From assembly GCF_030013595.1 (NCBI RefSeq), contig NZ_CP122768.1: a DNA stretch of 64,000 nt; one strand, 5' to 3'. The position numbers and the translations under genes are program-made. The stretch comes from Escherichia coli (GTDB taxonomy: Bacteria > Pseudomonadota > Gammaproteobacteria > Enterobacterales > Enterobacteriaceae). Every line of letters begins with the position of its first letter. The stretch's first letter is position 1. The notes beneath the pieces were generated by a model. That model had not been told where the DNA came from and did no database searches. It was given only the letters and a program-made list of their open reading frames with translations. This document shows, piece by piece, positions 20,519 through 55,742 of this stretch.

Positions 20519-20663
20519 TAATTATTCTCACTTGTGGGGAGGGGCGGGTCAAATCTCTGCAACCCTGGCTGCTCAGTACCGCCGCCTGACCTTTCCTCGC
20601 ATCGCCGCAGGTTCGAAAACTTTTTTTGGAATGTGATTAAATGATTGATAGGTAAAACCGATT

Positions 20664-27700: not shown

Positions 27701-27758
27701 GGTCGTTAATGATTTTACCCACCCGCCGCTGGCGGGTTTTTATTTTCAGGAGACGAGT

Positions 27759-28463
27759 ATGTCCTCTAATTTTGAGCGTTCGCAACTGACGAAAATTATG
27801 ATTTCGTCTGCACCGGTAACAGCAGAAACCCTGGATTCTGCCAGCTATCTTGGCCTGAGCTGTACAATCAAAGAGGTGCAGTTTACCGCAGGACAAAAGC
27901 AGGATATTGATGTCACCACGCTGTGTTCTGTTGAGCAGGAAAATATTAACGGTCTTGGTGCCGCGTCAGAGATTTCCATGTCAGGCAACTTTTACCTCAA
28001 TGCTGCCCAGAACGCGTTGCGCAGTGCCTATGACAATGACACCACGTATGGCTTTAAAGTTATTTTTCCGTCAGGAAACGGATTTACCTTTATGGCAGAG
28101 GTGCGTCAGCATACCTGGTCTGCAGGAACCAATGGTGTTGTGGCTGCAACGTTTTCCCTGCGCCTGAAAGGTAAACCTGTGCTGACGACAGAGCCGCTGA
28201 AAGTGAAGGTCGATTTAAACAGCACGCTGCAGGTTTCTGCCGGAGCGAAACTCGAAATGGTGGTTGAGGCTGCCGGTGGTGTGCCGCCTTATTCTTATGT
28301 TTGGAAGAAAGGTAGTTCTCCTGTTTCCGGACAGACGGCGGCAACGTTCAGTAAGGCATCAGCAGCATCCGGTGATGCCGGTGCGTATACCTGCGAGATT
28401 TCTGATTCAGCAAGCCCGGTTAACAAAGTGACCACCACTTCCTGCACTGTAACCGTCAGTTAA
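27759..28463 (+). CDS. Major tail protein with C-terminal Ig-like domain
   Basis: 234 aa; C-terminal ..PPYSYVWKKGSSPVSGQTAATFSKASAASGDAGAYTCEISD.. is a bacterial Ig-like fold signature. Confidence 0.7.
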   Translation: MSSNFERSQLTKIMISSAPVTAETLDSASYLGLSCTIKEVQFTAGQKQDIDVTTLCSVEQENINGLGAASEISMSGNFYLNAAQNALRSAYDNDTTYGFKVIFPSGNGFTFMAEVRQHTWSAGTNGVVAATFSLRLKGKPVLTTEPLKVKVDLNSTLQVSAGAKLEMVVEAAGGVPPYSYVWKKGSSPVSGQTAATFSKASAASGDAGAYTCEISDSASPVNKVTTTSCTVTVS

Positions 28464-28477
28464 TGAGGATGGATGTG

Positions 28478-28960
28478 ATGACTAAAAATATCCGTAATCT
28501 TGCACTGGCAACGATGTCGGGGTTTCGCCATAAAACCGTTGATGTGCCTGAATGGGAGGGAGCAACGGTTGTGTTACGGGAACCTTCTGCAGAAGCCTGG
28601 TTGCGCTGGCAGGAGATCGTTAAAGCCAGGGAAGATGATACATCGCCATCTGTTGCAGAGCGTGCCCGCCGAAATCTGGAGGCGGACGTTGAGCTGTTCA
28701 TTGATGTTCTGTGTGATACCGGGCTGCAACCCGTATTTTCAGCGGATGATCGTGAACAGGTGATTGCCGTGTATGGCCCGGTGCATGCCCGGCTTCTTCG
28801 CCAGTCTCTGGAACTGATCAGTGATGCCGGAGAGGTTAAAAAAAGTAGCGCTTCCGGGGATGCGTTTTCTGATGATGCTGGCGCTCAGGATGGGGCGCAC
28901 ATTGTCAGAGTTACGCCGGGAAATGTCCGCATCAGAAATCATGATGTGGGCAGAATTTGA
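28478..28960 (+). CDS. Tail assembly chaperone (lambda G-like)
   Basis: Position between major tail protein and tape measure; overlapping downstream out-of-frame ORF. Confidence 0.7.
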   Translation: MTKNIRNLALATMSGFRHKTVDVPEWEGATVVLREPSAEAWLRWQEIVKAREDDTSPSVAERARRNLEADVELFIDVLCDTGLQPVFSADDREQVIAVYGPVHARLLRQSLELISDAGEVKKSSASGDAFSDDAGAQDGAHIVRVTPGNVRIRNHDVGRI

Positions 28961-29150
28961 CAGGTTCAGCCCGCTGGGGGACGAACGGGCTGATATCCGG
29001 GCTGCCCAGATTGTTTCCGCTGTTTACGGTGCGCAGGGGGTCAAAGTACCACTGAATGATGTGCTTCTTCAGTGGGAGCAGGAGCAGACAGAAGGCGCCT
29101 CAGATCCATTTGCCGGGCTGGAAAACGCGCTTTTAACCGTGTCTCAGTGA
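28478..29150 (+). CDS. Tail assembly chaperone frameshift fusion (GT-like), predicted recoding product
   Basis: Second ORF (28821..29150) overlaps the G 3' end in the +1 (equivalently -2) frame; A7 run at 28838..28844 in the overlap. Confidence 0.45.
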
Positions 29151-29190
29151 GTCAACATAACCGCTTCGGCGGTTTTTTTTCGTCCGGAGA

Positions 29191-32100
29191 ATGAGTGTGG
29201 CGACATTACGTGAACTGATTATTAAAATTTCGGCAAACTCCCGGTCATTTCAGTCAGAGATCTCCCGGGCTTCGCGTATGGGGCAGGATTACTACCGTAC
29301 CATGCAGAACGGAAGCCGACAGTCCGCTGCTGCATCCCGTGAAATGCGGCGTGCACTGGCAGAAGTGACGGATCAGATAAATACAGCTAAATCTTCGGCA
29401 CTGAACATGGCGGGGGCATTTGCCGGGGCTTTTGCTACCGGTCATCTTATTTCTCTCGCCGATGAGTGGAATTCAGTCAATGCCCGTCTGAAGCAGGCCT
29501 CACAGTCCAGTGATGATTTTCAGGCATCACAACGTGAATTAATGGCAATCAGCCAGAGAACGGGGACGGCTTTTTCTGATAACGCCAGCCTTTTTGCCCG
29601 TTCTGCAGCTTCCATGCGGGAGTATGGTTACAGTTCTGAGGAGGTACTGAAAGTCACCGAGGCGATCTCCACGGGCCTGAAATTATCCGGTGCCAGTACA
29701 GCAGAAGCCAGTTCGGTGATTACGCAGTTCAGTCAGGCACTGGCGCAGGGAGTGCTGCGCGGTGAAGAGTTTAACTCGGTGAATGAGAACGGCGATCGTG
29801 TTATTCGTGCGCTGGCTGGGGGAATGGGAGTTGCCCGTAAGGATCTGAAGGCCATGGCGGATAACGGAAAACTGACCGCCGATAAGGTTGTTCCTGCACT
29901 GATTAGTCAGCTTGGGGCATTACGTGATGAATATGCGGCAATGCCTGATACGGTTTCATCCTCTGCAACCAAAGTTGAAAACGCCTTTATGGCCTGGGTT
30001 GGTGGTGCGAACGAGGCAAGCGGAGTGACGCAGACGCTCTCCGGTGTGCTGAATGGTATTGCAGGCAATATTGACACCGTGGCAACCGCTGCCGGCGCTC
30101 TGGTTGCCGTCGGGGTAGCCCGATATTTTGGCAATATGGCGTCTTCTGCTGGATCTGCAACTGCCGGATTAATTACTGCAGCCAGAAACGAAGTGGCTCT
30201 TGCTGAAGCGCAACTTCGGGGGACACAGATAGCAACCGCCAGGGCGCGTGCGGCGGTTTATCGTGCGCAACAGGCGGTTGTTGCTGCTCGCGGTACCGAA
30301 AGGCAGGCCGCAGCAGAAGCGAAGCTGACAGCTGCCCAGGCGTCACTTACCCGTAATATTGCGGCCAGAACAGCGGCACAGACAACGCTGAATACTGTCA
30401 CGTCAGTGGGGAGTCGTCTGTTAAGTGGTGCGCTGGGGCTGGTTGGTGGTGTGCCGGGACTCGTCATGCTGGGGGCGACGGCCTGGTACACGATGTATCA
30501 GAATCAGGAGCAGGCCAGAGAATCTGCACGCCAGTATGCCGCAACAATCGACGAAATTCGCCAGAAAACGTCGGCAATGTCGCTTCCTGAAGCGTCAGAT
30601 AATGAGGAAAAAACGCGACAGGCACTGAAGGAGCAGAACAGGTTAATTGACGAGCAGAAAAGTAAGATTAAATCCTTACAGGAAAAAATTGCTGGCTATC
30701 AGTATGTGCTGGCAAATCCGGGCTGGACAACCGATAACGGTTTTATGATTAACCACATGACGTCGGTAAAAACTGTCACAGAAGGGCTTGCAGAAGCAAC
30801 AAATCAACTGGCAGTTGAACAGTCTCGCCTCACTCAAATGCAGGGCAAAGCGCAATCCATTCAGGATGTGCTTGCCGGGCTGGAGGAGCGACGGGTGGCG
30901 TTGATCCGTCAACAGGCAGCGGAACAAAACAAAGCGTATCAGTCCCTGTTGATCATGAATGGGCAGCATACCGAGTTTAATCGCCTTCTCGGGCTTGGTA
31001 ATGAATTACTTCAGCAGCGACAGGGGCTGGTGAATGTACCGTTACGGCTACCACAGGCAACCCTGGATGATAAACAGCAGACCGCACTGAATAACAGCAA
31101 GCGCGAACTGGCTCTGTCCCGCCTTAAGGGGGAAGCGCGTGAGCGTGCCCGACTGGGCTATGCTGCGGATGATCTCGGCTTTGTGGGAGAGGCGTATCAG
31201 ACAGCCAGACAGAATTATATCAATAACTCACTGGATGCCTGGCGAAATAACCAGGCAAATAAACCCAAAGCGCATAAAAAGACCGAAGCGGAAAAAACAG
31301 AAGATATTTATAAACGGCTGATTAAACAGCAAAAAGAACAGATAGCACTGGCAGGGCAGAATACTGAACTGGCTAAGATGAAATATCAGGTCAGTCAGGG
31401 CGAATTATCAACCCTGTCAGAAGCGCAGAAAAAAACGCTTTTGCAGAATGCAGCACTCATCGACCAGAAAAAGATTCGTGAGCAGCTTGCCGCGTATGAA
31501 AGCAGTCTGGCGGACAGTAATGCCAGTGCCCGGGCGTCTGACGACGCGCAGTTGCTGGGATATGGTGAAGGCTCACGGATGCGTGAACGGCTCCAGGAAA
31601 TGTGGAGTATCCGGCATGAGTTTGAGCAGAAAAATAACGAGCTGCTGAGACAGTATCAGGCCGGAGAAATTGAAGAAGCCCTGTGGAAACAGGAGAAAGA
31701 ACTGAATAAAAAATATCTGGAAGAGCGTCTCAGCGATCAGCAGGATTATTATGCAAAGGCCGATGCTTTACGTAATAACTGGAATGCTGGACTCCAGGAG
31801 GGACTGACCAACTGGGCAGACAGTGCCACCGATTATGCTTCACAGGCGGCAGATGCTGTCGTTTCCACGATGGACGGGCTGGTATCAAATATTTCCGATG
31901 CACTGGCCGGGAATGTTGTGGACTGGAGGAACTGGGGGAGTTCAGTTCTCCGGGAAGTTTCAAAAATTCTGATGAATGCAGCCATTGTTAACGGACTGAA
32001 ATCACTCTCCGGTGCCGGAGGGTGGCTTGGTACGGTCGGCGGATGGATTTCGGGGGCAGTGGCAAACGCAAAAGGTGGTGTTTACACATCGGCAAATCTG

Positions 32101-32424
32101 AGTGCTTACAGTAACACTATTGTGGATACACCGACGTATTTTGCTTTTGCGAAAGGTGCCGGGCTGATGGGTGAGGCCGGGCCTGAAGCAATCATGCCAC
32201 TGACACGGGCAGCGGACGGCTCTCTTGGGGTCAGGGCCATTGGAAATGTGAATGGTGGCGGTGGATTTGTTTATTCTCCCGTGTATCACATCAGCATTCA
32301 GAATCAAGGGAGCAATGGCGAGATAGATGCGCGCTCAGCCAGGGGACTGGTGGATCTGATCGACAGCAGGGTTGTGTCAATTATGCAGTCATCGCGTCGG
32401 GATGGAGGATTGTACAGTGCCTGA
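29191..32424 (+). CDS. Tail tape measure protein
   Basis: 1077 aa, alpha-helical, Ala/Gln-rich. Confidence 0.9.
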   Translation: MSVATLRELIIKISANSRSFQSEISRASRMGQDYYRTMQNGSRQSAAASREMRRALAEVTDQINTAKSSALNMAGAFAGAFATGHLISLADEWNSVNARLKQASQSSDDFQASQRELMAISQRTGTAFSDNASLFARSAASMREYGYSSEEVLKVTEAISTGLKLSGASTAEASSVITQFSQALAQGVLRGEEFNSVNENGDRVIRALAGGMGVARKDLKAMADNGKLTADKVVPALISQLGALRDEYAAMPDTVSSSATKVENAFMAWVGGANEASGVTQTLSGVLNGIAGNIDTVATAAGALVAVGVARYFGNMASSAGSATAGLITAARNEVALAEAQLRGTQIATARARAAVYRAQQAVVAARGTERQAAAEAKLTAAQASLTRNIAARTAAQTTLNTVTSVGSRLLSGALGLVGGVPGLVMLGATAWYTMYQNQEQARESARQYAATIDEIRQKTSAMSLPEASDNEEKTRQALKEQNRLIDEQKSKIKSLQEKIAGYQYVLANPGWTTDNGFMINHMTSVKTVTEGLAEATNQLAVEQSRLTQMQGKAQSIQDVLAGLEERRVALIRQQAAEQNKAYQSLLIMNGQHTEFNRLLGLGNELLQQRQGLVNVPLRLPQATLDDKQQTALNNSKRELALSRLKGEARERARLGYAADDLGFVGEAYQTARQNYINNSLDAWRNNQANKPKAHKKTEAEKTEDIYKRLIKQQKEQIALAGQNTELAKMKYQVSQGELSTLSEAQKKTLLQNAALIDQKKIREQLAAYESSLADSNASARASDDAQLLGYGEGSRMRERLQEMWSIRHEFEQKNNELLRQYQAGEIEEALWKQEKELNKKYLEERLSDQQDYYAKADALRNNWNAGLQEGLTNWADSATDYASQAADAVVSTMDGLVSNISDALAGNVVDWRNWGSSVLREVSKILMNAAIVNGLKSLSGAGGWLGTVGGWISGAVANAKGGVYTSANLSAYSNTIVDTPTYFAFAKGAGLMGEAGPEAIMPLTRAADGSLGVRAIGNVNGGGGFVYSPVYHISIQNQGSNGEIDARSARGLVDLIDSRVVSIMQSSRRDGGLYSA

Positions 32425-43395: not shown

Positions 43396-43422
43396 TGGTG
43401 GAGCTGGCGGGAGTTGAACCCG
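43396..43422. repeat. att core, right copy (within the ssrA 3' end)
   Basis: Identical 27-mer to 292..318. Confidence 0.8.
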
Positions 43423-43758
43423 CGTCCGAAATTCCTACGTCCTCGGTACTACATGCTTAGTCAGTCTTTACATTCGCTTGCCAGCTGCGGACGGACACGC
43501 CACTAACAAACTAGCCTGATTAAGTTTTAACGCTTCAACCCCAGGCAGGGCTTCCACGCGATCTCTTTTGGGTTTGACCTCTCTTGATCCCCGTCCTAAG
43601 AGCGGAGGCTAGGGAGAGAGGGCTCTAAGCAGGTTATTAAGCTGCTAAAGCGTAGTTTTCGTCGTTTGCGACTATTTTTTGCGGCTTTTTACGAGGCCAA
43701 CCGCCCCTCGGCATGCACCTTGGGTTTCGCAAATCCCGTCGAATCCAGAATCAGCCCC
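43396..43758 (-). ncRNA. ssrA: tmRNA (SsrA), 363 nt
   Basis: Reverse complement begins ggggctgattctggattcgacgggatttgcg.. and ends ..gggttcaactcccgccagctccacca; contains the tag-reading frame (..gcaaacgacgaaaactacgctttagcagcttaa). Confidence 0.95.
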
Positions 43759-43972: not shown

Positions 43973-44455
43973 TTAACGGTGGGCGTTTTTCATGATACGC
44001 GCTTTATCCACCTGCCATTCGCGCTCTTTGATATCTGAACGTTTATCGTGCTGTTTCTTACCTTTGGCGACGCCGATTTTCACTTTGCACCAGGCATTTT
44101 TCCAGTACAGGGAGAGCGCCACTACGGTATAGCCTTCTCGATTGACGCGACCGTACAATGAGTCCAGTTCGCGCTGGTTGAGAAGTAACTTGCGGGTACG
44201 GGTAGGATCGCACACCACATGCGTGGAGGCCACAGCCATTGGCGTGATGTTAGCGCCAAACAGAAATGCCTCTCCGTCACGCAGAAGGACGTAGCTGTCG
44301 CTGATATTGGCTTTTCCTGCGCGCAGGGATTTAACCTCCCAGCCTTGCAGGGCAAGTCCCGCCTCGAACTCTTCTTCGATAAAGTATTCGTGCCGGGCGC
44401 GCTTGTTAAGCGCGATGGTCGCTGAACCAGGTTTATGTGCTTTTTTCTTCGTCAT
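43973..44455 (-). CDS. smpB: SsrA-binding protein SmpB
   Basis: 160 aa, [45 protein letters not shown].. Confidence 0.95.
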
Positions 44456-44586
44456 AAGCGTCGTGAATCATCGGTAATCTGAAATCGAAAACACCCCATA
44501 TCAATCCTGCGGGGGACAAGGCTCTATCTTAGCATGAACCCGATGTTACCCAGCGCCGGGATAGCGTTTTTTTTACAGCAGGATAA

Positions 44587-45063
44587 ATGATATTATTTGT
44601 TGGATTTTTGTTGATGGAAATTGTTATGCCTCAGATTAGCCGGACCGCACTGGTACCCTACAGCGCGGAGCAAATGTATCAGTTAGTGAATGACGTTCAG
44701 TCTTATCCTCAGTTTTTGCCGGGTTGTACCGGAAGTCGGATTCTGGAGTCCACTCCTGGGCAGATGACTGCGGCGGTAGATGTCTCTAAGGCTGGGATCA
44801 GCAAAACGTTTACTACCCGCAACCAGTTGACCAGTAACCAAAGTATTCTTATGAATCTGGTGGATGGGCCGTTCAAGAAATTGATCGGTGGATGGAAGTT
44901 TACGCCGCTGAGCCAGGAGGCGTGTCGTATCGAGTTTCATCTCGATTTTGAGTTTACCAATAAGTTGATTGAACTCGCCTTTGGTCGCGTGTTTAAAGAG
45001 CTGGCGGCTAATATGGTCCGGGCTTTTACGGTTCGTGCGAAAGAGGTTTACAGTGCCAGGTAA
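44587..45063 (+). CDS. ratA: Ribosome association toxin RatA (SRPBCC family)
   Basis: 158-aa ORF matching E. coli RatA/YfjG as recalled. Confidence 0.85.
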
Positions 45064-45343
45064 AATTGCCGTTGAGGTGGCTTATGCGCTACCTGAGAAG
45101 CAGTACCTGCAGCGCGTGACGCTGCAGGAGGGCGCGACGGTTGAAGAAGCTATTCGCGCCAGTGGTTTGCTGGAATTGCGTACCGATATCGATTTAACTA
45201 AAAACAAAGTCGGCATTTACAGCCGTCCGGCCAAACTGAGCGATACCGTGCATGATGGCGATAGGGTGGAGATTTATCGTCCTCTCATTGCCGATCCGAA
45301 AGAGCTGCGCAGGCAACGAGCAGAAAAATCAGCGAATAAATAA
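45053..45343 (+). CDS. ratB: RatB/YfjF small protein
   Basis: 96-aa ORF from GTG overlapping the ratA 3' end. Confidence 0.75.
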
Positions 45344-45404
45344 CAGACAGAAAAAAGGTGCTCATTGAGCACCTTTTTTAACGTCTTTGAGAGCAACTTT
45401 ATTA

Positions 45405-45746
45405 TTAGTTACCACTCAGCGCAGGTTTATTATCAATATTGGTCAACACCCCGCTACTATTAAAGGTCAGCGTCAGCGTTTGCTGCGTTACACCTTCATG
45501 ACCTGGTTGCTGGCGGAAGACATAGAACCAGGTATTCGTACCAAATGGATCGGACATCAGCGGTGTACCCAATGCGTACGCAACTTGTTGTTGCGTCATG
45601 CCAACGCGTATTTTGGATACGTCGTTAGCGGTCAGATAATTCCCTTGGTTGATATCAGGACGGTAAACCACTCGCTCCAGAGTGGAACAGCCTGCGGTCA
45701 ACATCAATAGTACTGCTGCTGCAGCAGTCAGCGTTTTACAGCGCAT
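45405..45746 (-). CDS. bamE: Outer-membrane assembly lipoprotein BamE
   Basis: 113 aa, lipobox LTAGC. Confidence 0.9.
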
Positions 45747-45894
45747 AGTGATTTGATTCCTTTTCGGGCCCGAGCAGTACGTGGCTCATCTGTAATATGC
45801 CGATGATAATAGACCTTTCATCACTTTAAAACCTTTTGCTTTCCGGTCTTACGGCGTTTTGCTGTTTACTCTGACCGTGAAGCAGGAAAAAAGT

Positions 45895-47556
45895 TTACGC
45901 CGCAAGTAGTTCTTTCGCATTCGCCAGTGTGTTACGTGTGACTTCACTGCCACCAAGCAGGCGCGCCAGCTCTTGTAACCGCGCTTTTTTATCCAGGGAT
46001 TGCATATGCGTTTCTGTCATCGCACCATCGGTTTCTTTGCTGACAAAATAGTGTTGATGACCACATCCCGCGACTTGTGGCAGGTGGGTAACACACATCA
46101 CCTGAGTTGATTCGCCAAGTTGACGCAGCAGTTTGCCGACAACTGCCGCTGTTGGACCGCTAATCCCTACATCCACTTCATCAAAAATCAGTGCCGGGGT
46201 TTCCATTTTACGCGCCGTGATGACCTGAATTGCCAATGCGATGCGGGACAATTCACCACCGGATGCAACTTTGGCAATAGGCTGCATTGGCTGACCTGGG
46301 TTGGTGGTTACCCGAAACTCAATACGATCAGCGCCGTCAGCGCCCAGGTGATGCTCGTCAAATTTAATATCGATCGTAAACTGCCCATGTGGCATAGAGA
46401 GCGCATGCATACTTTTGGTGATCAGCTGTGCCAACTCATTTGCATAATGCTGGCGTTGCAGGTGTAATGCGTGCGCGGTTTCCAGTGCCTGCTGATGATG
46501 TTTCGTTACCGCCAGCGCGAGCGTTTCTTGTGAGTCGGCCTGATCGTCCAGTTGCTGCTGTTCTTCCAGTAGCGACTGGTAATACTGTGGCAATGCCTCA
46601 GGGCTGACGTGATGTTTACGTGCCAGCGAAATCTGTTTTGAGATGCGCTGTTCAAGTTCAAACAGTCGGTTGGGATCGAGATCCAGACGATCGCAGTAGT
46701 GGCGCAGTTCATCGCTGGCTTCAGTAATCTGGATGGTAGCTTCTTCCAGCATATCAAGTACGCCGGACAGTTTGCTGTCCATGCCAATCAATTCGCTCAC
46801 CAGTTGTTTAGCCGTGTAAAGCTGACTTTGCAGGTTTGCGTCTTCACCGTCGGCCATTACTGCCAATGCATTCTGGCTGGTAGTCAGCAATTGACCGCTG
46901 TTCGCCAGACGTTTGTACTCTTCGTCGATTTGCTCAAACTCTCCGGGCTGCGGATTAAATTCGTTAAGTTCTTTTAATTGGTATTGCAGCAGTTCTGCAC
47001 GGGCGGCGCGTTCCTGACTTAACTGTTGATGATGCGCGAGGTCACGGCAGCTTTGATGCCACAACTGATAACGTGCGGTCATTTCCTGGAGTAGAGAGGT
47101 TTCATTGGCATAGCCATCAAGCAGGAATTTTTGGTGCTCGGGTTTGGTGAGTAACTGATGAGCGTGCTGACCATGGATCTGAATCAGCAACTGACCCAGT
47201 TCGCGCAGTTGTGAAAGAGGAACCGCTGTACCGTTGATAAAACCACGGGAGCGACCATCGCTGCTGATTACGCGACGAAGCAAACATTCATGCCCGTCTT
47301 CAAGCTGGTTTTCTTCCAGCCAGCGCAGGGCCGCTGGCGTATCTTTCAGAGAAAAACGGGCGCACAGGTCGGCACGAGCAGCGCCGGTACGCACCATGTC
47401 GGCTTCAGCGCGACCACCGAGACAAAGGCCGAGGGCATCTATTGCAATAGATTTACCCGCGCCGGTCTCGCCAGTTATTACGGTCATGCCGCTATGAAAA
47501 TCAATCTCAAGCTCACGAACGATAGCAAAGTTGCTGATGGTCAGTTGTGCCAACAT
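45895..47556 (-). CDS. recN: DNA repair protein RecN
   Basis: 553 aa, SMC-like ATPase; Walker A GETGAGKS. Confidence 0.95.
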
Positions 47557-47641
47557 AGTTGTTTTCCTGTATGAAAAACCATTACTGTTATTGTGTACAG
47601 TATAAACTGGTTTTATATACAGTAAAGAGGCTGGCGTAAAA

Positions 47642-48520
47642 TTAGAATAATTTTTTTGACCAGCCGAGCTTGGTGCTTAATGTATTGAAATAACTGTAAT
47701 CTTTCGGATGAATCAGATTCAGATGGTAATCACAGCGACGAATCAGGACATCTTCACCTTCCTGAATCGGCAGTGCTATCTGGCTGTCGCAACTGATTTC
47801 CAGGTCGTTACGGCGATGCGAAAAACGCAGACGGATCGTGCTGCTGCTGTTTATCACCAGCGGTCGCGCTGACAACGTATGCGGGAACATGGGCACCAGG
47901 GTAATCGCATCCAGAGAGGGTGTCAGAATAGGACCGCCCGCAGAGAGGGAATAGGCGGTGGAGCCTGTTGGCGTCGAAATAATCAGGCCATCAGAACGCT
48001 GAGAAAACGCAAAGATCTCGTCGATATACACTTCGAACTCAATCATATGCGCCACTTTGCCAGGATGAAGTACCACTTCGTTAATCGCCGTGCTGATGCG
48101 TTTCTGGCAATCTTGCTGACAAACTTGCGCTTCCAGCAAAAAACGTTTCTCGCTGATGTAGTGGCCTTCCAGCACATCGGCTAATTGTTGCTGGGCGTTA
48201 TCGGGATCAAGGTCGGTCAGGAAACCCAGGTTGCCACGGTTGATTCCAATAACTTTAATATCGTAACGGGCGAGTGTGCGTGCCGCGCCCAGCATATTAC
48301 CGTCGCCACCAACGACTACCGCGAGATCAGCCAGTTGTCCAATCTCCGCGAGCGTGCCAGTTTTCACATTCTTCAGTTGCAGTTCGTGAGCGATTTGCTG
48401 CTCAACGATGACCTCGTAACCTTTTGTGCACAGCCAGCGGTAGAGCATTTCATGTGTTGTCAGTGCAGTGGGGTGCCGTGGGTGTCCCACAATGCCAATA
48501 CACTTGAAATGATTATTCAT
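47642..48520 (-). CDS. nadK: NAD kinase
   Basis: 292 aa with GGDG motif ([11 protein letters not shown]). Confidence 0.95.
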
Positions 48521-48609
48521 TTTTCCGAGGTCCTTGTTGCGAAGATTGATGACAATGTGAGTGCTTCCCTTGAAACCCTGAAACTGATCCCCATAATAAG
48601 CGAAGTTAG

Positions 48610-49236
<627 letters not shown>

Positions 49237-49290
49237 TTTCTGCTTTCGTAATAAATCACGGCCCAGCATGCGAATGCCGGGCCGTTTTCG

Positions 49291-50553
49291 TTACTCCGCC
49301 ACACTCTCGCGCAGCGGTTTCACAGGAAAAACTTTTACCTGTTTAATCATATTGTCCTGTACGTCGAGAATATCGATATCGTACTCGCCAATACGTACAC
49401 GGGTGCCCGCGACCGGGATCTCTTCCAGTGCCTCAAGAATGACGCCATTAACCGTTCGTGCATCATCTTCCGGTAGATGCCAGTTAAAGGCTTTGTTGAT
49501 TTCCCGCACGTTGGCGGTGCCATCAATAATCACCGAACCGTCGTTTTGCGGCGTGACCTCTTCGGCAAGTGTTGGCGACATGGACGTGGTGAAATCACCG
49601 ACGATCTCTTCCAGAATATCTTCAACCGTCACCAGTCCCTGAATGTCTCCATACTCGTTGACGACCAGGCCGACTTTCTTTTTGTTGCGCTGAAACTTCA
49701 CCAACTGCGTGCTGAGGGGCGTACCTTCCGGGACAAAATAGATCTCGTCCGCGGCGCGCAGCATGGTTTCTTTGGTGAACTCTTTTTTCTCCGACATCAA
49801 CCGCCAGGCTTCACGTACTCGCAGCATACTGATGGCGTCGTCCAGCGAATCACGGTAGAGCACGATGCGCCCGTGAGGTGAGTGGGATAGTTGGCGCAGA
49901 ATCGATTTCCAGTCATCGTTGATATCAATACCGATAATTTCACTGCGCGGCACCATGATGTCATCAACGGTCATCTTTTCCAGATCGAGCACAGACAGCA
50001 GCATATCCTGATTGCGACGGGAAATTTGTGAGCGCGACTCATGCACGATAGTGCGCAACTCTTCTTTGCTCAAAGAGCCGCTAACCACGATATCGGTTTT
50101 GATACCCATCATGCGCATCAGCATACGGGTGATAGCATTCAGCAACCAGACCAGCGGCATCATCAAAATTTGCAGCGGAGCCAGCAGAAAACTACTCGGA
50201 TAAGCGACTTTTTCCGGGTACAGCGCGGCAATGGTTTTCGGCAATACCTCAGCAAATACTAGTACGACAAAAGTCAGCACACCAGTTGCAATTGCCACGC
50301 CCGCATCGCCGTACAAACGCATCCCAACAATAGTGCCGAGCGCGGAGGCAAGAATATTGACCAGGTTATTGCCGATTAACACCAGGCTTATCAGGCGGTC
50401 TGGCTTACGCAGCAATTTTTCGACGCGTTTGGCCGAGCGATTACCCTGTTTCGCCATATGTCGCAGACGATAGCGGTTGAGGGTCATCATTCCGGTTTCG
50501 GACCCGGAAAAATAGGCTGAAATGACCACCATGATGATCAGAATAATGATCAA
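49291..50553 (-). CDS. yfjD: CorC/HlyC-family membrane protein with CBS domains (YfjD-like)
   Basis: 420 aa; DUF21 transmembrane region plus CBS pair. Confidence 0.85.
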   Translation of the reverse strand: MIIILIIMVVISAYFSGSETGMMTLNRYRLRHMAKQGNRSAKRVEKLLRKPDRLISLVLIGNNLVNILASALGTIVGMRLYGDAGVAIATGVLTFVVLVFAEVLPKTIAALYPEKVAYPSSFLLAPLQILMMPLVWLLNAITRMLMRMMGIKTDIVVSGSLSKEELRTIVHESRSQISRRNQDMLLSVLDLEKMTVDDIMVPRSEIIGIDINDDWKSILRQLSHSPHGRIVLYRDSLDDAISMLRVREAWRLMSEKKEFTKETMLRAADEIYFVPEGTPLSTQLVKFQRNKKKVGLVVNEYGDIQGLVTVEDILEEIVGDFTTSMSPTLAEEVTPQNDGSVIIDGTANVREINKAFNWHLPEDDARTVNGVILEALEEIPVAGTRVRIGEYDIDILDVQDNMIKQVKVFPVKPLRESVAE

Positions 50554-50597
50554 CGTAGTAGTAGAAATGTGTTCCAGGGGAAACTCCTTTTCTGGGT

Positions 50598-51389
50598 TTA
50601 GCTGATTAACTGCTGGACAATTCGGCTGCCGAAGTAGGCCAGTGTCAGAATGACTGCACCCGCAACGTTAAACCAGACGACGCGGCGTCCACGCCATCCT
50701 TCATGATAATGTCCCCACAGCAGCACAATATAGACAAACCACGCCACGATAGAGAGCACGGCCTTGTCGATATTTTCCATGCTAAATAAGTTGTGCATGT
50801 AGAACAGGCCAGTGCAAAGCGTGAGCGTTAGCAGCACCACGCCAATCTGCGTGATGTGGAACATTTTACGCTCGATACTCATTAATGGCGGCATTTCCTG
50901 GTTAAACGCCAGCTTCTTGTTCTTCAGTTGGTAATCAATCCACGCCAGTTGCAGCGCGTACAGGGCGGCGATAATCAGCGTGGCATAGGAAAAGAGCGAT
51001 AAGCCAATGTGCACCAGCATCCCAGGCGTTGCTTCCAGATGAGTGATGTATTCATTGGGCATGAAGGTCGCCAGCGCCAGGTTGATAAGCGCAAAGGCAT
51101 AGACAATGGGTAGCAGCAACCAGCCACGATTGCGAGAAGCCACAATGGTCATTACCGTACAGATCATCAAACTGACCAATGAACCAACGTTCAGCAGGCT
51201 GAGGTTTTGTCCGCTATCACCGTCGGGCAGGATGCGGGCTTCCAGAGCGATTGCGTGGCAGACCAGCGCAATGACCGCAGAAATAATAGCCATGCGCCGC
51301 CAGCCGCCGTTTTTTTGCAGCAGACCGGGAACAATCAGCGCAAGACTGACGGAGTAGGCGACAAGCGCGAGCAGAGCAAAAACGGGCAT
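50598..51389 (-). CDS. ypjD: Inner membrane protein YpjD (cytochrome c assembly-like)
   Basis: Polytopic membrane protein; start set at the internal Met to give 263 aa. Confidence 0.75.
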   Translation of the reverse strand: MPVFALLALVAYSVSLALIVPGLLQKNGGWRRMAIISAVIALVCHAIALEARILPDGDSGQNLSLLNVGSLVSLMICTVMTIVASRNRGWLLLPIVYAFALINLALATFMPNEYITHLEATPGMLVHIGLSLFSYATLIIAALYALQLAWIDYQLKNKKLAFNQEMPPLMSIERKMFHITQIGVVLLTLTLCTGLFYMHNLFSMENIDKAVLSIVAWFVYIVLLWGHYHEGWRGRRVVWFNVAGAVILTLAYFGSRIVQQLIS

Positions 51390-51555
51390 AGTGATGTCGA
51401 CAGTTTGAGCAATAAGAAAGAGAAGCAGTATAGCGTCAGGTGAACGCTGCTCCAACCGTTGCATAACAACAAAGACGCCTTCATGTTATACTGCGGCAAA
51501 ATACTGATGATGTGTCGCGATTGCGGCCAACCGTTTCCACCCCAGGCGAGAGACA

Positions 51556-52917
51556 ATGTTTGATAATTTAACCGATCGTTTGTCGCGCACGCTGCGCAAT
51601 ATCAGTGGCCGTGGACGCCTCACTGAAGACAACGTAAAAGATACGCTGCGCGAAGTGCGCATGGCGCTGCTGGAGGCGGACGTCGCTCTGCCGGTAGTGC
51701 GTGAGTTTATCAATCGCGTAAAAGAGAAAGCGGTTGGTCATGAAGTTAATAAGAGCCTGACGCCGGGGCAGGAGTTCGTCAAAATCGTCCGTAACGAACT
51801 GGTTGCGGCGATGGGCGAACAGAACCAGACCCTGAACCTGGCTGCGCAACCGCCAGCGGTCGTGCTGATGGCGGGCCTGCAAGGTGCCGGTAAAACAACC
51901 AGCGTTGGTAAACTCGGTAAGTTCCTGCGCGAGAAGCACAAGAAGAAAGTGCTGGTGGTTTCCGCCGACGTTTATCGCCCGGCGGCAATCAAACAGCTTG
52001 AGACGCTGGCAGAGCAGGTGGGCGTTGATTTCTTCCCTTCTGATGTTGGTCAGAAGCCGGTAGATATCGTTAACGCGGCGCTGAAAGAAGCCAAACTGAA
52101 ATTCTACGACGTGCTGCTGGTGGATACCGCTGGTCGTCTGCACGTTGACGAAGCGATGATGGATGAGATCAAACAAGTCCATGCGTCGATTAATCCGGTT
52201 GAAACCCTGTTTGTGGTTGACGCCATGACCGGTCAGGATGCGGCCAATACGGCAAAAGCATTTAATGAAGCGTTACCGCTTACCGGCGTAGTGTTGACCA
52301 AAGTGGACGGCGATGCCCGCGGCGGTGCGGCACTCTCTATTCGTCACATCACTGGCAAACCGATCAAGTTCCTCGGTGTTGGCGAGAAAACTGAGGCGCT
52401 GGAGCCGTTCCATCCGGACCGCATCGCGTCGCGTATTCTCGGCATGGGCGACGTACTGTCACTGATCGAAGATATCGAAAGCAAAGTTGACCGCGCGCAG
52501 GCAGAGAAATTAGCCAGCAAGCTGAAAAAAGGCGACGGCTTCGATCTCAACGACTTTCTTGAGCAGCTGCGCCAGATGAAAAATATGGGCGGCATGGCTA
52601 GCCTGATGGGCAAGCTGCCGGGCATGGGGCAGATCCCGGATAACGTCAAGTCGCAGATGGACGATAAAGTGCTGGTGCGTATGGAAGCCATCATCAACTC
52701 GATGACGATGAAAGAGCGCGCTAAGCCAGAAATCATCAAAGGTTCGCGTAAGCGTCGTATCGCCGCCGGTTGCGGGATGCAGGTACAGGACGTTAACCGC
52801 CTTCTGAAGCAGTTCGACGACATGCAGCGCATGATGAAGAAAATGAAGAAGGGCGGAATGGCGAAGATGATGAGAAGCATGAAGGGTATGATGCCGCCGG
52901 GATTTCCTGGTCGCTAA
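51556..52917 (+). CDS. ffh: Signal recognition particle protein Ffh
   Basis: 453 aa; GTPase motifs and Met-rich M domain. Confidence 0.95.
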   Translation: MFDNLTDRLSRTLRNISGRGRLTEDNVKDTLREVRMALLEADVALPVVREFINRVKEKAVGHEVNKSLTPGQEFVKIVRNELVAAMGEQNQTLNLAAQPPAVVLMAGLQGAGKTTSVGKLGKFLREKHKKKVLVVSADVYRPAAIKQLETLAEQVGVDFFPSDVGQKPVDIVNAALKEAKLKFYDVLLVDTAGRLHVDEAMMDEIKQVHASINPVETLFVVDAMTGQDAANTAKAFNEALPLTGVVLTKVDGDARGGAALSIRHITGKPIKFLGVGEKTEALEPFHPDRIASRILGMGDVLSLIEDIESKVDRAQAEKLASKLKKGDGFDLNDFLEQLRQMKNMGGMASLMGKLPGMGQIPDNVKSQMDDKVLVRMEAIINSMTMKERAKPEIIKGSRKRRIAAGCGMQVQDVNRLLKQFDDMQRMMKKMKKGGMAKMMRSMKGMMPPGFPGR

Positions 52918-53087
52918 TCGGCCTGGCTTGTTTGCCATTTTGGCACCGGGGTGTGCTCGTCATCCTCACGTACTGCGTGTACGCTCCGGTGACTGCGCGC
53001 ACTCCGGCACCAGACTGGCTGCACCGCCGACGGCCTTTTACAGCAGAGTTAGCAACTGTTGATTGCAATTTCCGCAAAAATGAGTAA

Positions 53088-53414
<327 letters not shown>

Positions 53415-53432
53415 TCTGTCACGGTGGTCATG

Positions 53433-53981
53433 ATGAGCAAACAACTCACCGCGCAAGCACCTGTTGATCCCATCGTTTTGGGAAAAATGGGTTCGTCTTA
53501 CGGTATTCGTGGGTGGCTCAGAGTGTTTTCTTCCACCGAAGACGCCGAAAGCATTTTTGACTATCAGCCCTGGTTTATCCAGAAGGCGGGTCAGTGGCAG
53601 CAAGTCCAGCTGGAAAGCTGGAAGCACCACAATCAGGACATGATCATCAAGCTGAAAGGCGTTGACGATCGTGATGCGGCGAACCTGCTGACGAATTGTG
53701 AAATTGTCGTGGATTCATCGCAGCTGCCTCAGCTTGAAGAGGGTGACTACTACTGGAAAGACCTGATGGGCTGCCAGGTAGTAACCACTGAAGGCTACGA
53801 TCTCGGTAAAGTCGTCGATATGATGGAAACCGGATCTAATGACGTTCTCGTCATTAAGGCAAACCTGAAAGATGCGTTTGGTATCAAGGAACGTCTCGTA
53901 CCGTTCCTCGATGGGCAGGTTATCAAGAAAGTCGATCTCACTACTCGTTCAATCGAAGTAGATTGGGATCCTGGTTTTTAA
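53433..53981 (+). CDS. rimM: Ribosome maturation factor RimM
   Basis: 182 aa from [10 protein letters not shown].. Confidence 0.9.
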
Positions 53982-54011
53982 ACCACCGGATAAACGGTAA
54001 AAGACGGCGCT

Positions 54012-54779
54012 ATGTGGATTGGCATAATTAGCCTGTTTCCTGAAATGTTCCGCGCAATTACCGATTACGGGGTAACTGGCCGGGCAGTTAAAAATGGCCT
54101 GCTGAGCATCCAGAGCTGGAGTCCTCGCGACTTCACGCATGACCGGCACCGTACCGTGGACGATCGTCCTTACGGCGGCGGACCGGGGATGTTAATGATG
54201 GTGCAACCTTTGCGGGACGCCATTCATGCAGCAAAAGCCGCGGCGGGTGAAGGCGCAAAGGTGATTTATCTGTCACCACAGGGACGCAAGCTTGATCAAG
54301 AGGGCGTCAGCGAACTGGCAACGAATCAAAAATTGATTCTGGTGTGCGGTCGCTACGAAGGTATAGATGAGCGCGTGATCCAAACCGAAATTGACGAAGA
54401 ATGGTCAATCGGCGATTACGTTCTCAGTGGTGGTGAGTTACCAGCAATGACGCTGATTGACTCCGTTTCCCGGTTTATTCCGGGAGTACTGGGACATGAA
54501 GCCTCGGCAACGGAAGATTCCTTTGCTGAAGGATTGCTGGATTGCCCGCACTATACGCGGCCTGAGGTGTTAGAAGGGATGGAAGTTCCGTCAGTGTTAC
54601 TGTCGGGCAACCATGCCGAGATACGTCGCTGGCGTTTGAAACAGTCGCTGGGCCGTACCTGGCTTAGAAGACCTGAACTTCTGGAAAACCTGGCTCTGAC
54701 TGAAGAGCAAGCAAGGTTGCTGGCGGAGTTCAAAACGGAACACGCACAACAGCAACATAAACATGATGGGATGGCGTAA
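54012..54779 (+). CDS. trmD: tRNA (guanine37-N1)-methyltransferase TrmD
   Basis: 255 aa. Confidence 0.95.
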
Positions 54780-54817
54780 GCCCCCGAGATATCAGTTTAC
54801 CCAGGATAAGAGATTAA

Positions 54818-55168
<351 letters not shown>

Positions 55169-55244
55169 GATTTCGCTTAAGCGACATCCTGTTAAGAAGG
55201 GCTGGCCAATTGGCTGGCCCTTTTTTTGTCTGTTTGCTCGTGTT

Positions 55245-55727
55245 TTAAGGGGTTGTAATCACCACTGCGACGCGGCGGTTCTCGGCGCGGCCCTGGGCGG
55301 TCTTGTTACTGGCTATGGGATATTTTTTTCCTAAACCCTGTGTGGTGAGATTGCTGCGTGGAATTTTTCCACCCATAGCCCATGCATCGGCCACGACATT
55401 CGCCCGTTTCAATGATAAGCCTTCGTTGTAACTGTCTTCACCATAGTTATCGGTGTGTCCATCCATACGGGCATGTGTTAGCCCTGTCGAGGCCAATTTG
55501 GCTGCCATGGTTTGGATCTGTTGCTGGCTTTCCGGGAGCAATTTGTAGTCATTTTTTGCGAACAGAATGGCATCTGATAAGCCCAGCGACCAGTCGCCGG
55601 CGGATTCAGTAAATCCATAAGATTGCATAGCGACGACTTGCTCAGGAGTAAACTTTCCCTGAGGGGACTGGCAGCCAGTCAGTACTAGCGAGGTGAAAAT
55701 CAGGGGTGCTACCAGGTGCTTTATCAT
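55245..55727 (-). CDS. yfiB: OmpA-family lipoprotein YfiB
   Basis: Lipobox LTGC; OmpA-like C-terminal domain. Confidence 0.85.
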   Translation of the reverse strand: MIKHLVAPLIFTSLVLTGCQSPQGKFTPEQVVAMQSYGFTESAGDWSLGLSDAILFAKNDYKLLPESQQQIQTMAAKLASTGLTHARMDGHTDNYGEDSYNEGLSLKRANVVADAWAMGGKIPRSNLTTQGLGKKYPIASNKTAQGRAENRRVAVVITTP

Positions 55728-55742
55728 ATCGATATATCCTTG

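What the first reader, a model, noticed from the sequence alone, without database searches (positions are those of the whole stretch)
28478..29150. Tail-chaperone recoding site with a +1/-2 frame relation rather than the usual -1
The G-like ORF and the overlapping downstream ORF sit in the conserved G/GT position, and the overlap contains an A7 run (28838..28844). The downstream frame is +1 (equivalently -2) relative to G, so an A AAA AAG-type -1 slip does not fit: the -1 frame hits TAG immediately. This points to the less common -2/+1 class of tail-chaperone frameshift, or to a 1-nt sequencing error in the homopolymer.
Basis: seen in the sequence. Interest (0 to 1): 0.45.

Follow-up and report, generated by a model that had tools for sequence, protein, structure and literature searches.

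The report
Ordinary tail-chaperone frameshift site, one A short
This is the standard backward (-1) ribosomal frameshift site of a lambda/HK97-type prophage tail-chaperone gene pair, recorded here with seven A's instead of the family's eight, most likely through a sequencing miscall or a recent slip mutation, so it is not a new +1/-2 recoding class.

Summary
There is an A7 run at 28838-28844, the T-domain frame is +1 relative to the G frame, and the -1 frame is blocked by TAA and TAG. The headline interpretation is not supported.

Close relatives carry A8: 104 of 108 IMG/VR contigs and about 885 of 898 complete E. coli genomes. A8 reads GTT AAA AAA AAG TAG, a textbook A_AAA_AAG -1 heptamer followed at once by the G stop. 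In nine diverse homologous pairs (37-96% identity, HK97 included) T is always in the -1 frame.

A7 copies are not a lineage. They sit on at least 7 separate backgrounds, and several have an A8 twin at 0-5 substitutions. NCBI's annotation pipeline (PGAP) calls G a pseudogene in every A7 genome I inspected.

Nine of the 13 A7 complete genomes come from one nanopore-only project, and the accessions for the window's exact read-through protein sit next to that project's. A7 also occurs in short-read assemblies, so genuine deletions exist too.

My weights for this window: homopolymer miscall about 0.65, genuine 1-nt deletion about 0.30, evolved +1/-2 site about 0.03. Low interest.

The parts
27759..28463 (+). 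Major tail (tube) protein gene with a C-terminal Ig-like domain. It is the upstream neighbour that fixes the G/GT position.
   Evidence: weak matches to Phage_TTP_11 and Phage_tail_2, plus Ig_2/Ig_3. Relatives annotate it as major tail subunit or immunoglobulin domain-containing protein.
28478..28843 (+). G (tail assembly chaperone) coding sequence up to the second Lys codon. These 122 residues are identical to those of a wild-type 123-aa G.
   Evidence: PF06222 E 1.6e-57, covering 1-123 of 124 profile positions; 0 differences from wild-type G P0016 over residues 1-122.
28838..28844 (+). A7 run. It is what remains of the family's A8 slip site (A_AAA_AAG), with one A missing.
   Evidence: seven of seven close relatives have A8; 104 A8 and 4 A7 contigs in IMG/VR; 13 A7 among 898 E. 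coli genomes.
28846..28848 (+). TAG. This is the G stop codon in A8 relatives. In the window it is out of frame with G because of the missing A.
   Evidence: G is annotated as 123 aa, ending at the equivalent position, in all relatives; an A8 reconstruction gives ...GEVKKK followed by a stop.
28844..28960 (+). 0-frame read-through tail. Thirty-eight out-of-frame residues (SSASGD...VGRI) and TGA are appended to G as the sequence is recorded.
   Evidence: No Pfam match beyond residue 122 (protein 3). PGAP marks G as a pseudogene ('missing C-terminus') in the six A7 genomes inspected.
28845..29150 (+). T-domain frame (VALPGMRF...TVSQ, then a stop). It is the C-terminal extension of the GT fusion.
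   Evidence: PF06223 E 5.9e-20; a -1 slip on A8, or a -2 slip on A7, joins it to G as a 224-aa GT. HK97's homologue is annotated 'translated due to a -1 frameshift'.
29159..29180 (+). Terminator-like hairpin plus a T8 tract between T and the tape measure gene. I used the T-run as an unconstrained homopolymer control.
   Evidence: for the hairpin; the T-run is T7 or T9 in 24 of 98 loci.
29191..32424 (+). Tape measure protein gene, the downstream neighbour of the G/GT pair.
   Evidence: Phage_HK97_TLTM E 4.9e-93, TMP_3, Tape_meas_lam_C.

Best explanation
The locus is an ordinary lambda/HK97-type G/GT tail-assembly-chaperone pair. It is expressed by a canonical -1 ribosomal frameshift on A_AAA_AAG, with the G stop codon TAG directly after the heptamer. 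In the real phage most ribosomes stop at TAG and make the 123-aa G. A minority slip back one base on the Lys codons and read on into T, making the 224-aa GT. The window records the eight-A run as seven A's, and that alone produces the apparent +1/-2 geometry and the 38-residue read-through tail on G. The missing A is most likely a homopolymer under-call in a nanopore-only assembly.

Shown here: the family state is A8 and -1; A7 is a scattered minority state; A7 is strongly enriched in one nanopore-only project. Inferred: that this window comes from that project, and that frameshifting in this family works as it does in lambda, HK97 and dnaX.
For: - Seven of seven close relatives read GTT AAA AAA AAG TAG.
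- IMG/VR holds 104 A8 contigs and 4 A7 contigs. Among complete E. coli genomes, 13 of 898 carry A7.
- A 70%-identical Stx phage and Vibrio, Bordetella and Burkholderia homologues keep A_AAA_AAG in register. T is in the -1 frame in nine of nine pairs, and HK97's record says '-1 frameshift'.
- In A8 relatives the -1 frame opens only after a TAA that abuts the run, and the 0 frame closes at TAG. The shift is therefore confined to 10 nt.
- The equally long intergenic T-run 330 bp away varies in 24 of 98 of the same loci. The A-run is non-8 in 1.4-3.7% of unbiased samples, so A8 is held by selection.
- Nine of the 13 A7 complete genomes are Belgian pig ETEC assemblies, which are listed as Oxford Nanopore GridION only (PMC13109261 Table 1).
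- The window's exact 160-aa product is recorded under accessions (MDM49.../MDM51..., WHG75562.1) adjacent to that project's.
- Four distinct G haplotypes in that accession series all carry A7.
- The window's T-run at 27737 is T5, one base shorter than the shortest allele (T6) among 92 other loci, which carry T6-T8.
Against: - The 20-kb host flank aligns to its nearest genome with no gaps, although it contains 30 homopolymers of 6 or more bases.
- Two checkable 8-mers in the window, the T8 runs at 29173 and 44567, have the expected length.
- A7 alleles are real elsewhere. One A7 product (P0003) is listed in 201 blocks of the collection, including SPAdes short-read contigs and a metagenome.
- The link between the window and the nanopore project rests only on adjacent accession numbers. 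The look-up of encoding contigs could not retrieve the source record.
Confidence: 0.65

Rival explanations
1. A genuine 1-nt slipped-strand deletion (A8 to A7) in the prophage. The site is still a derived form of the canonical -1 site, but the allele is real. Standard decoding then makes a 160-aa G with a 38-residue nonsense tail. A -1 slip on T_AAA_AAA would give exactly wild-type G. A -2 slip would give exactly wild-type GT, and a +1 slip would give GT lacking one Lys. RNA polymerase slippage to an A8 mRNA would restore the wild-type message. The prophage would most likely be defective or strongly impaired in tail assembly, because the G:GT ratio and the identity of the bulk product are wrong. 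It would be an early step of prophage decay, invisible to selection while the phage is lysogenic.
For: - A7 occurs in short-read assemblies and a metagenome.
- A7 arises on at least 7 backgrounds that are 50-138 substitutions apart over 3.4 kb. Four of them have an A8 twin at 0-5 substitutions, and small groups of identical A7 copies come from different assemblies, so the allele is heritable.
- The window's assembly is otherwise free of indels across 20 kb of host DNA.
- 28838 is the only uncompensated 1-nt indel inside a coding region of the structural module.
- All other structural genes are intact, as expected for a very recent event.
- The product logic was verified by translation.
- C_AAA_AAA alone gives 25-60% -1 shifting in E. 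coli (PMC1851650), so authentic G could still be made.
Against: There is a strong batch effect. Nine of the 13 A7 complete genomes, representing four G haplotypes, come from one nanopore-only project to which this window's protein accessions are adjacent. The background frequency of A7 outside that project is only about 0.5% among complete genomes (4 of about 889) and 3.7% in IMG/VR.
Confidence: 0.3
2. An evolved, programmed +1 or -2 frameshift site, as in phage Mu's -2 G/GT shift. On this reading A7 is the functional state and the ribosome is directed into the +1 frame to make GT.
For: - The frame geometry as recorded is +1/-2.
- The A-run allows tRNA-Lys to re-pair after a +1 or a -2 move, and the -2 product equals wild-type GT.
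- -2 and +1 tail-chaperone shifts exist in other phages (Atkins et al. 2016, PMC5009743; PMC4378225).
- An SD-like GGAGAGG lies 2 nt upstream of the run, a spacing that in prfB favours +1. That comparison is from my own knowledge of prfB.
Against: - No relative, close or distant, uses this frame: none of nine diverse pairs and no more than 4% of close relatives.
- A7 carriers never form a diverged clade.
- The 0-frame has no nearby stop, so the bulk product would be a G with a 38-aa junk tail rather than a proper G.
- The SD-like motif is absent in the Stx-phage relative.
- The downstream RNA structure is not significant, z = -1.47.
- All 11 close phage-collection records have the one-base-longer span, and the two I read directly (Evi, phi467) have A8.
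Confidence: 0.03

Closest known systems
Phage lambda G/GT and HK97 gp13/gp14 tail assembly chaperones (programmed -1 frameshift; Levin et al. 1993; Xu, Hendrix & Duda 2004, 2013, 2014, as cited in PMC5009743)
   Same: Same protein families (PF06222 and PF06223). Same gene position between the major tail protein and the tape measure. T has no independent role as a separate ORF. There is a -1 frame relation in all relatives, including HK97 at 61.5% identity, whose record carries a joined CDS 'translated due to a -1 frameshift'.
   Different: The heptamer in this subfamily is A_AAA_AAG with the stop codon immediately 3' of it. Lambda-type members such as mEp390 have G_GGA_AAG with the stop further downstream. 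The window as recorded lacks one A, so the -1 geometry is broken.
E. coli dnaX and IS-element A_AAA_AAG -1 frameshift sites
   Same: Identical slippery heptamer, decoded by the single E. coli tRNA-Lys. It is recognised in dnaX as slippery and promoting -1 frameshifting (abstract of PMC1851650; the rest from my own knowledge).
   Different: No significant downstream stem-loop here (z = -1.47), and no conserved upstream SD element at the dnaX spacing. The purpose here is a fixed G:GT ratio for tail assembly, not a truncated replicase subunit.
Phage Mu -2 (and other +1) tail-chaperone frameshifts
   Same: Same biological role, and the same nominal +1/-2 frame relation as the window as recorded (PMC5009743; PMC4378225).
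   Different: In Mu the -2 relation is the conserved functional state. Here it appears only in a scattered minority of 4% or less, breaks the G stop codon, and its carriers sit next to A8 twins.
'Savior' or leaky homopolymer indels compensated by low-level frameshifting (herpesvirus thymidine kinase G-run; Atkins et al. 2016)
   Same: If the A7 is genuine, low-level -1, -2/+1 or transcriptional slippage on the run could still yield authentic G and GT (concept from PMC5009743).
   Different: There is no evidence of any selective benefit of the indel here. The scattered tip distribution looks like mutation or error, not maintenance.

Membership tests
Lambda/HK97-type G/GT tail assembly chaperone pair with programmed -1 frameshift | Upstream ORF is a gpG-family chaperone | tested here: met
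   PF06222 Phage_TAC_1, E 1.6e-57, full-length match.
Lambda/HK97-type G/GT tail assembly chaperone pair with programmed -1 frameshift | Downstream overlapping frame encodes a gpT-family domain | tested here: met
   PF06223 Phage_tail_T, E 5.9e-20.
Lambda/HK97-type G/GT tail assembly chaperone pair with programmed -1 frameshift | Position between the major tail protein gene and the tape measure gene | tested here: met
   Tail tube/Ig gene at 27759-28463 and tape measure at 29191-32424. Same order in relatives.
Lambda/HK97-type G/GT tail assembly chaperone pair with programmed -1 frameshift | T frame is -1 relative to G | tested here: not met
   Not met in the window as recorded, where the relation is +1. 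Met in seven of seven close relatives and nine of nine diverse homologues. The failure is due to one missing A in a homopolymer.
Lambda/HK97-type G/GT tail assembly chaperone pair with programmed -1 frameshift | X_XXY_YYZ slippery heptamer in register within the overlap | tested here: not met
   In the window the 0-frame reads T_AAA_AAA and the -1 frame then runs AAG TAG. Relatives have A_AAA_AAG in register followed by TAG.
Lambda/HK97-type G/GT tail assembly chaperone pair with programmed -1 frameshift | G and GT fusion proteins made in a fixed ratio | not testable with these tools
   Needs protein analysis of an induced lysate.
+1/-2 class of tail-chaperone frameshifts (Mu-type) | T frame is +1/-2 relative to G | tested here: met
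   Met as recorded.
+1/-2 class of tail-chaperone frameshifts (Mu-type) | The frame relation is conserved among related phages | tested here: not met
   IMG/VR: 104 A8 against 4 A7. Complete genomes: about 885 against 13. Diverse homologues: none of nine are +1/-2.
+1/-2 class of tail-chaperone frameshifts (Mu-type) | Carriers form an evolving lineage, meaning the state is maintained | tested here: not met
   A7 sits on at least 7 backgrounds. The nearest neighbours are A8 copies, often at 0-5 substitutions.
+1/-2 class of tail-chaperone frameshifts (Mu-type) | The unshifted product is a proper G that ends near the shift site | tested here: not met
   The 0-frame runs 38 further codons with no family match. 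PGAP calls it a pseudogene.

The most novel reading that the evidence does not exclude
The A7 is genuine and the allele is a viable, leaky state. A single A-run would serve all three reading frames: -1 slippage on T_AAA_AAA regenerates authentic G, -2/+1 slippage or RNA-polymerase stuttering regenerates GT, and the bulk 0-frame product is a disposable extended G. The A8/A7 tract would then act as a reversible, contingency-like switch that turns prophage tail assembly down and up again in E. coli populations.
Probability: 0.04. Interest if true: 0.5.

Novelty: already known. Interest (0 to 1): 0.1.

Why it matters
It matters little for biology. The site is a textbook A_AAA_AAG -1 tail-chaperone frameshift, and the odd geometry disappears when one A is restored.

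It has some practical value:
- The slip site is by its nature a long homopolymer, so it is prone both to nanopore under-calls and to real slip mutations. A scan for unusual recoding will keep flagging it.
- The annotation pipeline (PGAP) turns the chaperone into a pseudogene in the A7 genomes.
- In this subfamily the pipeline never joins G and T into the frameshift product, although the HK97 reference record does.

If the deletion is genuine, it would mark a very recent inactivating or weakening hit in an otherwise intact prophage.

Tried and rejected
- **Downstream stimulatory RNA structure.** A fold of 28845-28935 gives -33.6 kcal/mol, z = -1.47, with 17 of 200 shuffles as good. This is not significant, so I dropped it.
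- **Upstream SD-like GGAGAGG as a +1 stimulator.** It is present in close relatives but absent in the Stx-phage homologue and coincides with the Gly-Glu-Val codons. I treat it as incidental.
- **Retrieving the window's source record.** The look-up of encoding contigs on the exact 160-aa product returned nothing. Only accession numbers from the listing of cluster members were available.
- **T7 at 20621 as a nanopore signature shared with ETEC1732.** A relaxed pattern showed T7 also in two loci from outside the project (3 of 20 others in all). It is a natural minor allele and weak evidence, so I down-weighted it.
- **A clean host flank as evidence against nanopore error.** ETEC1732, known to be nanopore-only, is equally clean in its coding regions yet has A7. 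The clean flank therefore does not discriminate.
- **Literature search for the project paper.** It gave only a secondary paper's table of sequencing platforms.
- **One literature search failed** on a syntax restriction for '-2', and one paper reading failed likewise for '+1'.

Full report
**1. The observation**

The region reads ...GGA GAG GTT AAA AAA AGT AGC GCT..., with an A7 run at 28838-28844. The ORF that starts at ATG 28478 is a full-length gpG-family chaperone (PF06222, E 1.6e-57). The frame that ends at 29150 carries a gpT domain (PF06223, E 5.9e-20). The pair lies between a tail-tube/Ig gene (27759-28463) and an HK97/lambda-type tape measure gene (29191-32424).

The T frame opens after TGA at 28815-28817 and is +1 relative to G. 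The -1 frame has TAA at 28837-28839 and TAG at 28846-28848.

The G frame does not end near the run. It continues for 38 further codons to TGA at 28958-28960, giving a 160-aa product. A7/T7 runs are common in the window, with 35 matches against 20.4 +/- 6.3 expected. So the run matters only because of where it lies.

**2. What relatives show**

The 851-bp region has close matches in 901 of 5,426 complete E. coli genomes and in 11 phage records at 94% identity or more. In seven relatives that I read directly, the run is A8: GTT AAA AAA AAG TAG. That is the classical A_AAA_AAG -1 heptamer, in register, followed at once by the G stop. G is annotated as 123 aa in all of them.

- Exact-pattern scans of IMG/VR found 104 contigs with A8 and 4 with A7.
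- A 90-nt A7 query found exactly 13 A7 genomes among the 898 complete genomes that carry the locus. None has the window's own flanking haplotype.
- A 70%-identical Stx-phage version reads AGA AAA AAG TAG, the same heptamer and stop.

I then sampled diverse homologues: HK97, Enterobacter LAU1, Klebsiella Kp4872-1, Vibrio Pm34, mEp390, Bordetella PHB09, Burkholderia phi644-2, Stx1_14040 and the JJ1886 prophage. T is in the -1 frame in nine of nine. A_AAA_AAG is in register in five and G_GGA_AAG in mEp390. HK97's record carries a joined CDS 'translated due to a -1 frameshift'.

In the A8 relatives the -1 frame opens only after a TAA that abuts the run, and the 0 frame closes at TAG. The shift is therefore confined to a 10-nt window that is essentially the heptamer.

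**3. Is A7 a lineage or a set of tip events?**

Over the 674-bp G-T region, the nearest neighbours of every A7 copy include A8 copies, at 0-4 substitutions. The window's nearest is an A8 copy at 4 substitutions.

Over about 3.4 kb, twelve A7 loci fall on at least seven backgrounds that are 50-138 substitutions apart. Four of those backgrounds have an A8 locus at 0-5 substitutions. So A7 has arisen, or been miscalled, many times independently, and it has not diverged as a clade.

As an internal control I used the equally long T-run in the terminator-like element 330 bp downstream (29173-29180). It is T7 or T9 in 24 of 98 of the same loci, whereas the A-run departs from 8 in only 1.4-3.7% of unbiased samples. 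A8 is therefore held by purifying selection, as expected for the functional state.

PGAP annotates G as a pseudogene ('missing C-terminus') in all six A7 genomes that I inspected.

**4. Error or real mutation in this window?**

Evidence for a genuine allele:
- A7 exists in short-read data. One 160-aa read-through product (P0003) is listed in 201 blocks of the collection, including SPAdes contigs and an infant-gut metagenome. Small groups of identical A7 loci come from different assemblies.
- The window's 20-kb host flank aligns to its nearest genome (98.9% identity) with no gaps, despite 30 homopolymers of 6 or more bases.
- 28838 is the only uncompensated 1-nt indel inside a coding region across the structural module when compared with strain WAT.

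Evidence for an artefact:
- Nine of the 13 A7 complete genomes belong to one Belgian pig-ETEC project. Its assemblies are listed as Oxford Nanopore GridION only (PMC13109261, Table 1).
- The window's exact 160-aa product is recorded under accessions (MDM4989851.1, MDM5158827.1, MDM5159484.1, WHG75562.1) that are adjacent to that project's (MDM49..., WHH...).
- At least four distinct G haplotypes in that accession series all show A7. That is very unlikely for independent real mutations, given a background of about 0.5-4%.
- A known nanopore-only genome, ETEC1732, is likewise clean in its coding regions yet has A7. A clean flank therefore does not argue against a miscall.
- The window's T-run at 27737 is T5, while 92 other loci have T6-T8.
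- The T7 at 20621 turned out to be a natural minor allele, so I give it little weight.

I put a miscall at about 0.65 and a genuine deletion at about 0.30. The link between the window and the nanopore project is an inference from accession numbers, not a demonstrated fact.

**5. Mechanism**

For the family, this is inferred from homology to lambda and HK97 G/GT and from the known behaviour of A_AAA_AAG in E. coli. Most ribosomes decode AAA AAA AAG and terminate at TAG, giving G (123 aa). A minority slip -1 on the Lys codons and continue as ...EVKKKVALPGMRF..., giving GT (224 aa). G and the G part of GT bind the tape measure. The T part recruits the major tail protein, and the ratio of the two is critical (Xu et al. 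2013, 2014, as summarised in PMC5009743).

If the A7 is genuine, explicit translation gives the following:
- the 0 frame gives G with a 38-aa nonsense tail;
- a -1 slip gives exactly wild-type G;
- a -2 slip gives exactly wild-type GT;
- a +1 slip gives GT lacking one Lys;
- an mRNA with one extra A from transcriptional slippage is the wild-type message.

C_AAA_AAA alone supports 25-60% -1 shifting in E. coli (PMC1851650), so the allele could be leaky. The bulk product and the G:GT ratio would still be wrong, so impaired tail assembly is the expected phenotype. That is an inference.

**6. Comparison with known systems, and novelty**

Tail-chaperone frameshifts are mostly -1, and Mu's -2 is described as exceptional (PMC4378225; PMC5009743). 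This locus belongs, by protein family, synteny and the state of its relatives, to the -1 majority.

The window as recorded fails the '-1 frame' and 'heptamer in register' features, but only because of one missing A. It also fails three of the four features expected of a real +1/-2 site: conservation among relatives, maintenance as a lineage, and a proper unshifted G product.

No significant downstream RNA structure was found. The upstream SD-like GGAGAGG is not conserved in the Stx-phage relative.

**Verdict**

This is an already known kind of site. The unusual geometry is an artefact or a recent lesion. Interest is low.

Noticed in passing
window 29159-29180: Terminator-like hairpin (AACCGCTTCGGCGGTT) plus a T8 tract between the T stop and the tape measure start. 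The T-run length is polymorphic among relatives (T7, T8 or T9; 24 of 98 loci are not T8). This also shifts the annotated tape measure start by one base between records.
   Followed up: partly
window 27721-27745: A second terminator-like hairpin (ACCCGCCGCTGGCGGGT) upstream of the tail tube gene. Its T-run is T5 in the window but T6, T7 or T8 in all 92 other loci that carry it. This may be another homopolymer under-call.
   Followed up: partly
window 20621-20627: An intergenic T7 upstream of the small terminase gene. Most relatives have T8 (17 of 20). T7 is also seen in nanopore-only ETEC1732 and in two IMG/VR loci.
   Followed up: partly
window 28829-28835: An SD-like GGAGAGG lies 2 nt upstream of the A-run, within the Gly-Glu-Val codons. 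GAGG is kept in close relatives, but the motif is absent in the 70%-identical Stx-phage homologue, so it is probably incidental.
   Followed up: partly
relatives L001-L005, L117-L122, L142 (equivalent to window 28478-29150): In this subfamily, PGAP and most phage submitters annotate G and a separate 'tail assembly protein T' or 'DUF4035' ORF from various internal starts (75-96 aa). They never annotate the joined -1 frameshift product, although HK97's reference record does. In the A7 genomes G is marked as a pseudogene.
   Followed up: partly
window 28838-28844 and the A8 relatives: On the wild-type A8 tract, an mRNA with one extra A from RNA-polymerase stuttering would encode the same GT protein as a -1 ribosomal slip (a codon-arithmetic inference, not run as a translation). 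Sequence alone cannot tell which route makes GT in this subfamily.
   Followed up: no
window 43396-43758 and 17443-17517: A tmRNA gene (ssrA, tag ANDENYALAA) sits directly after the prophage tail-fibre end, with smpB next to it. The prophage therefore occupies the ssrA attachment site. A tRNA-Gly(tcc) gene lies inside the prophage.
   Followed up: partly
window 44000-64000: The host flank (smpB, ratA, recN, grpE, ffh, rpsP, trmD, aroF, tyrA, pheA, and an IS4 copy near 62468-63805) is at most 98.9% identical to any of 5,426 complete RefSeq E. coli genomes. The source strain is therefore not in that collection and belongs to a less sampled lineage.
   Followed up: partly
window 27759-28463: The major tail protein carries a C-terminal Ig-like domain (Ig_2/Ig_3 matches), as in lambda gpV-type decorated tail tubes.
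   Followed up: no
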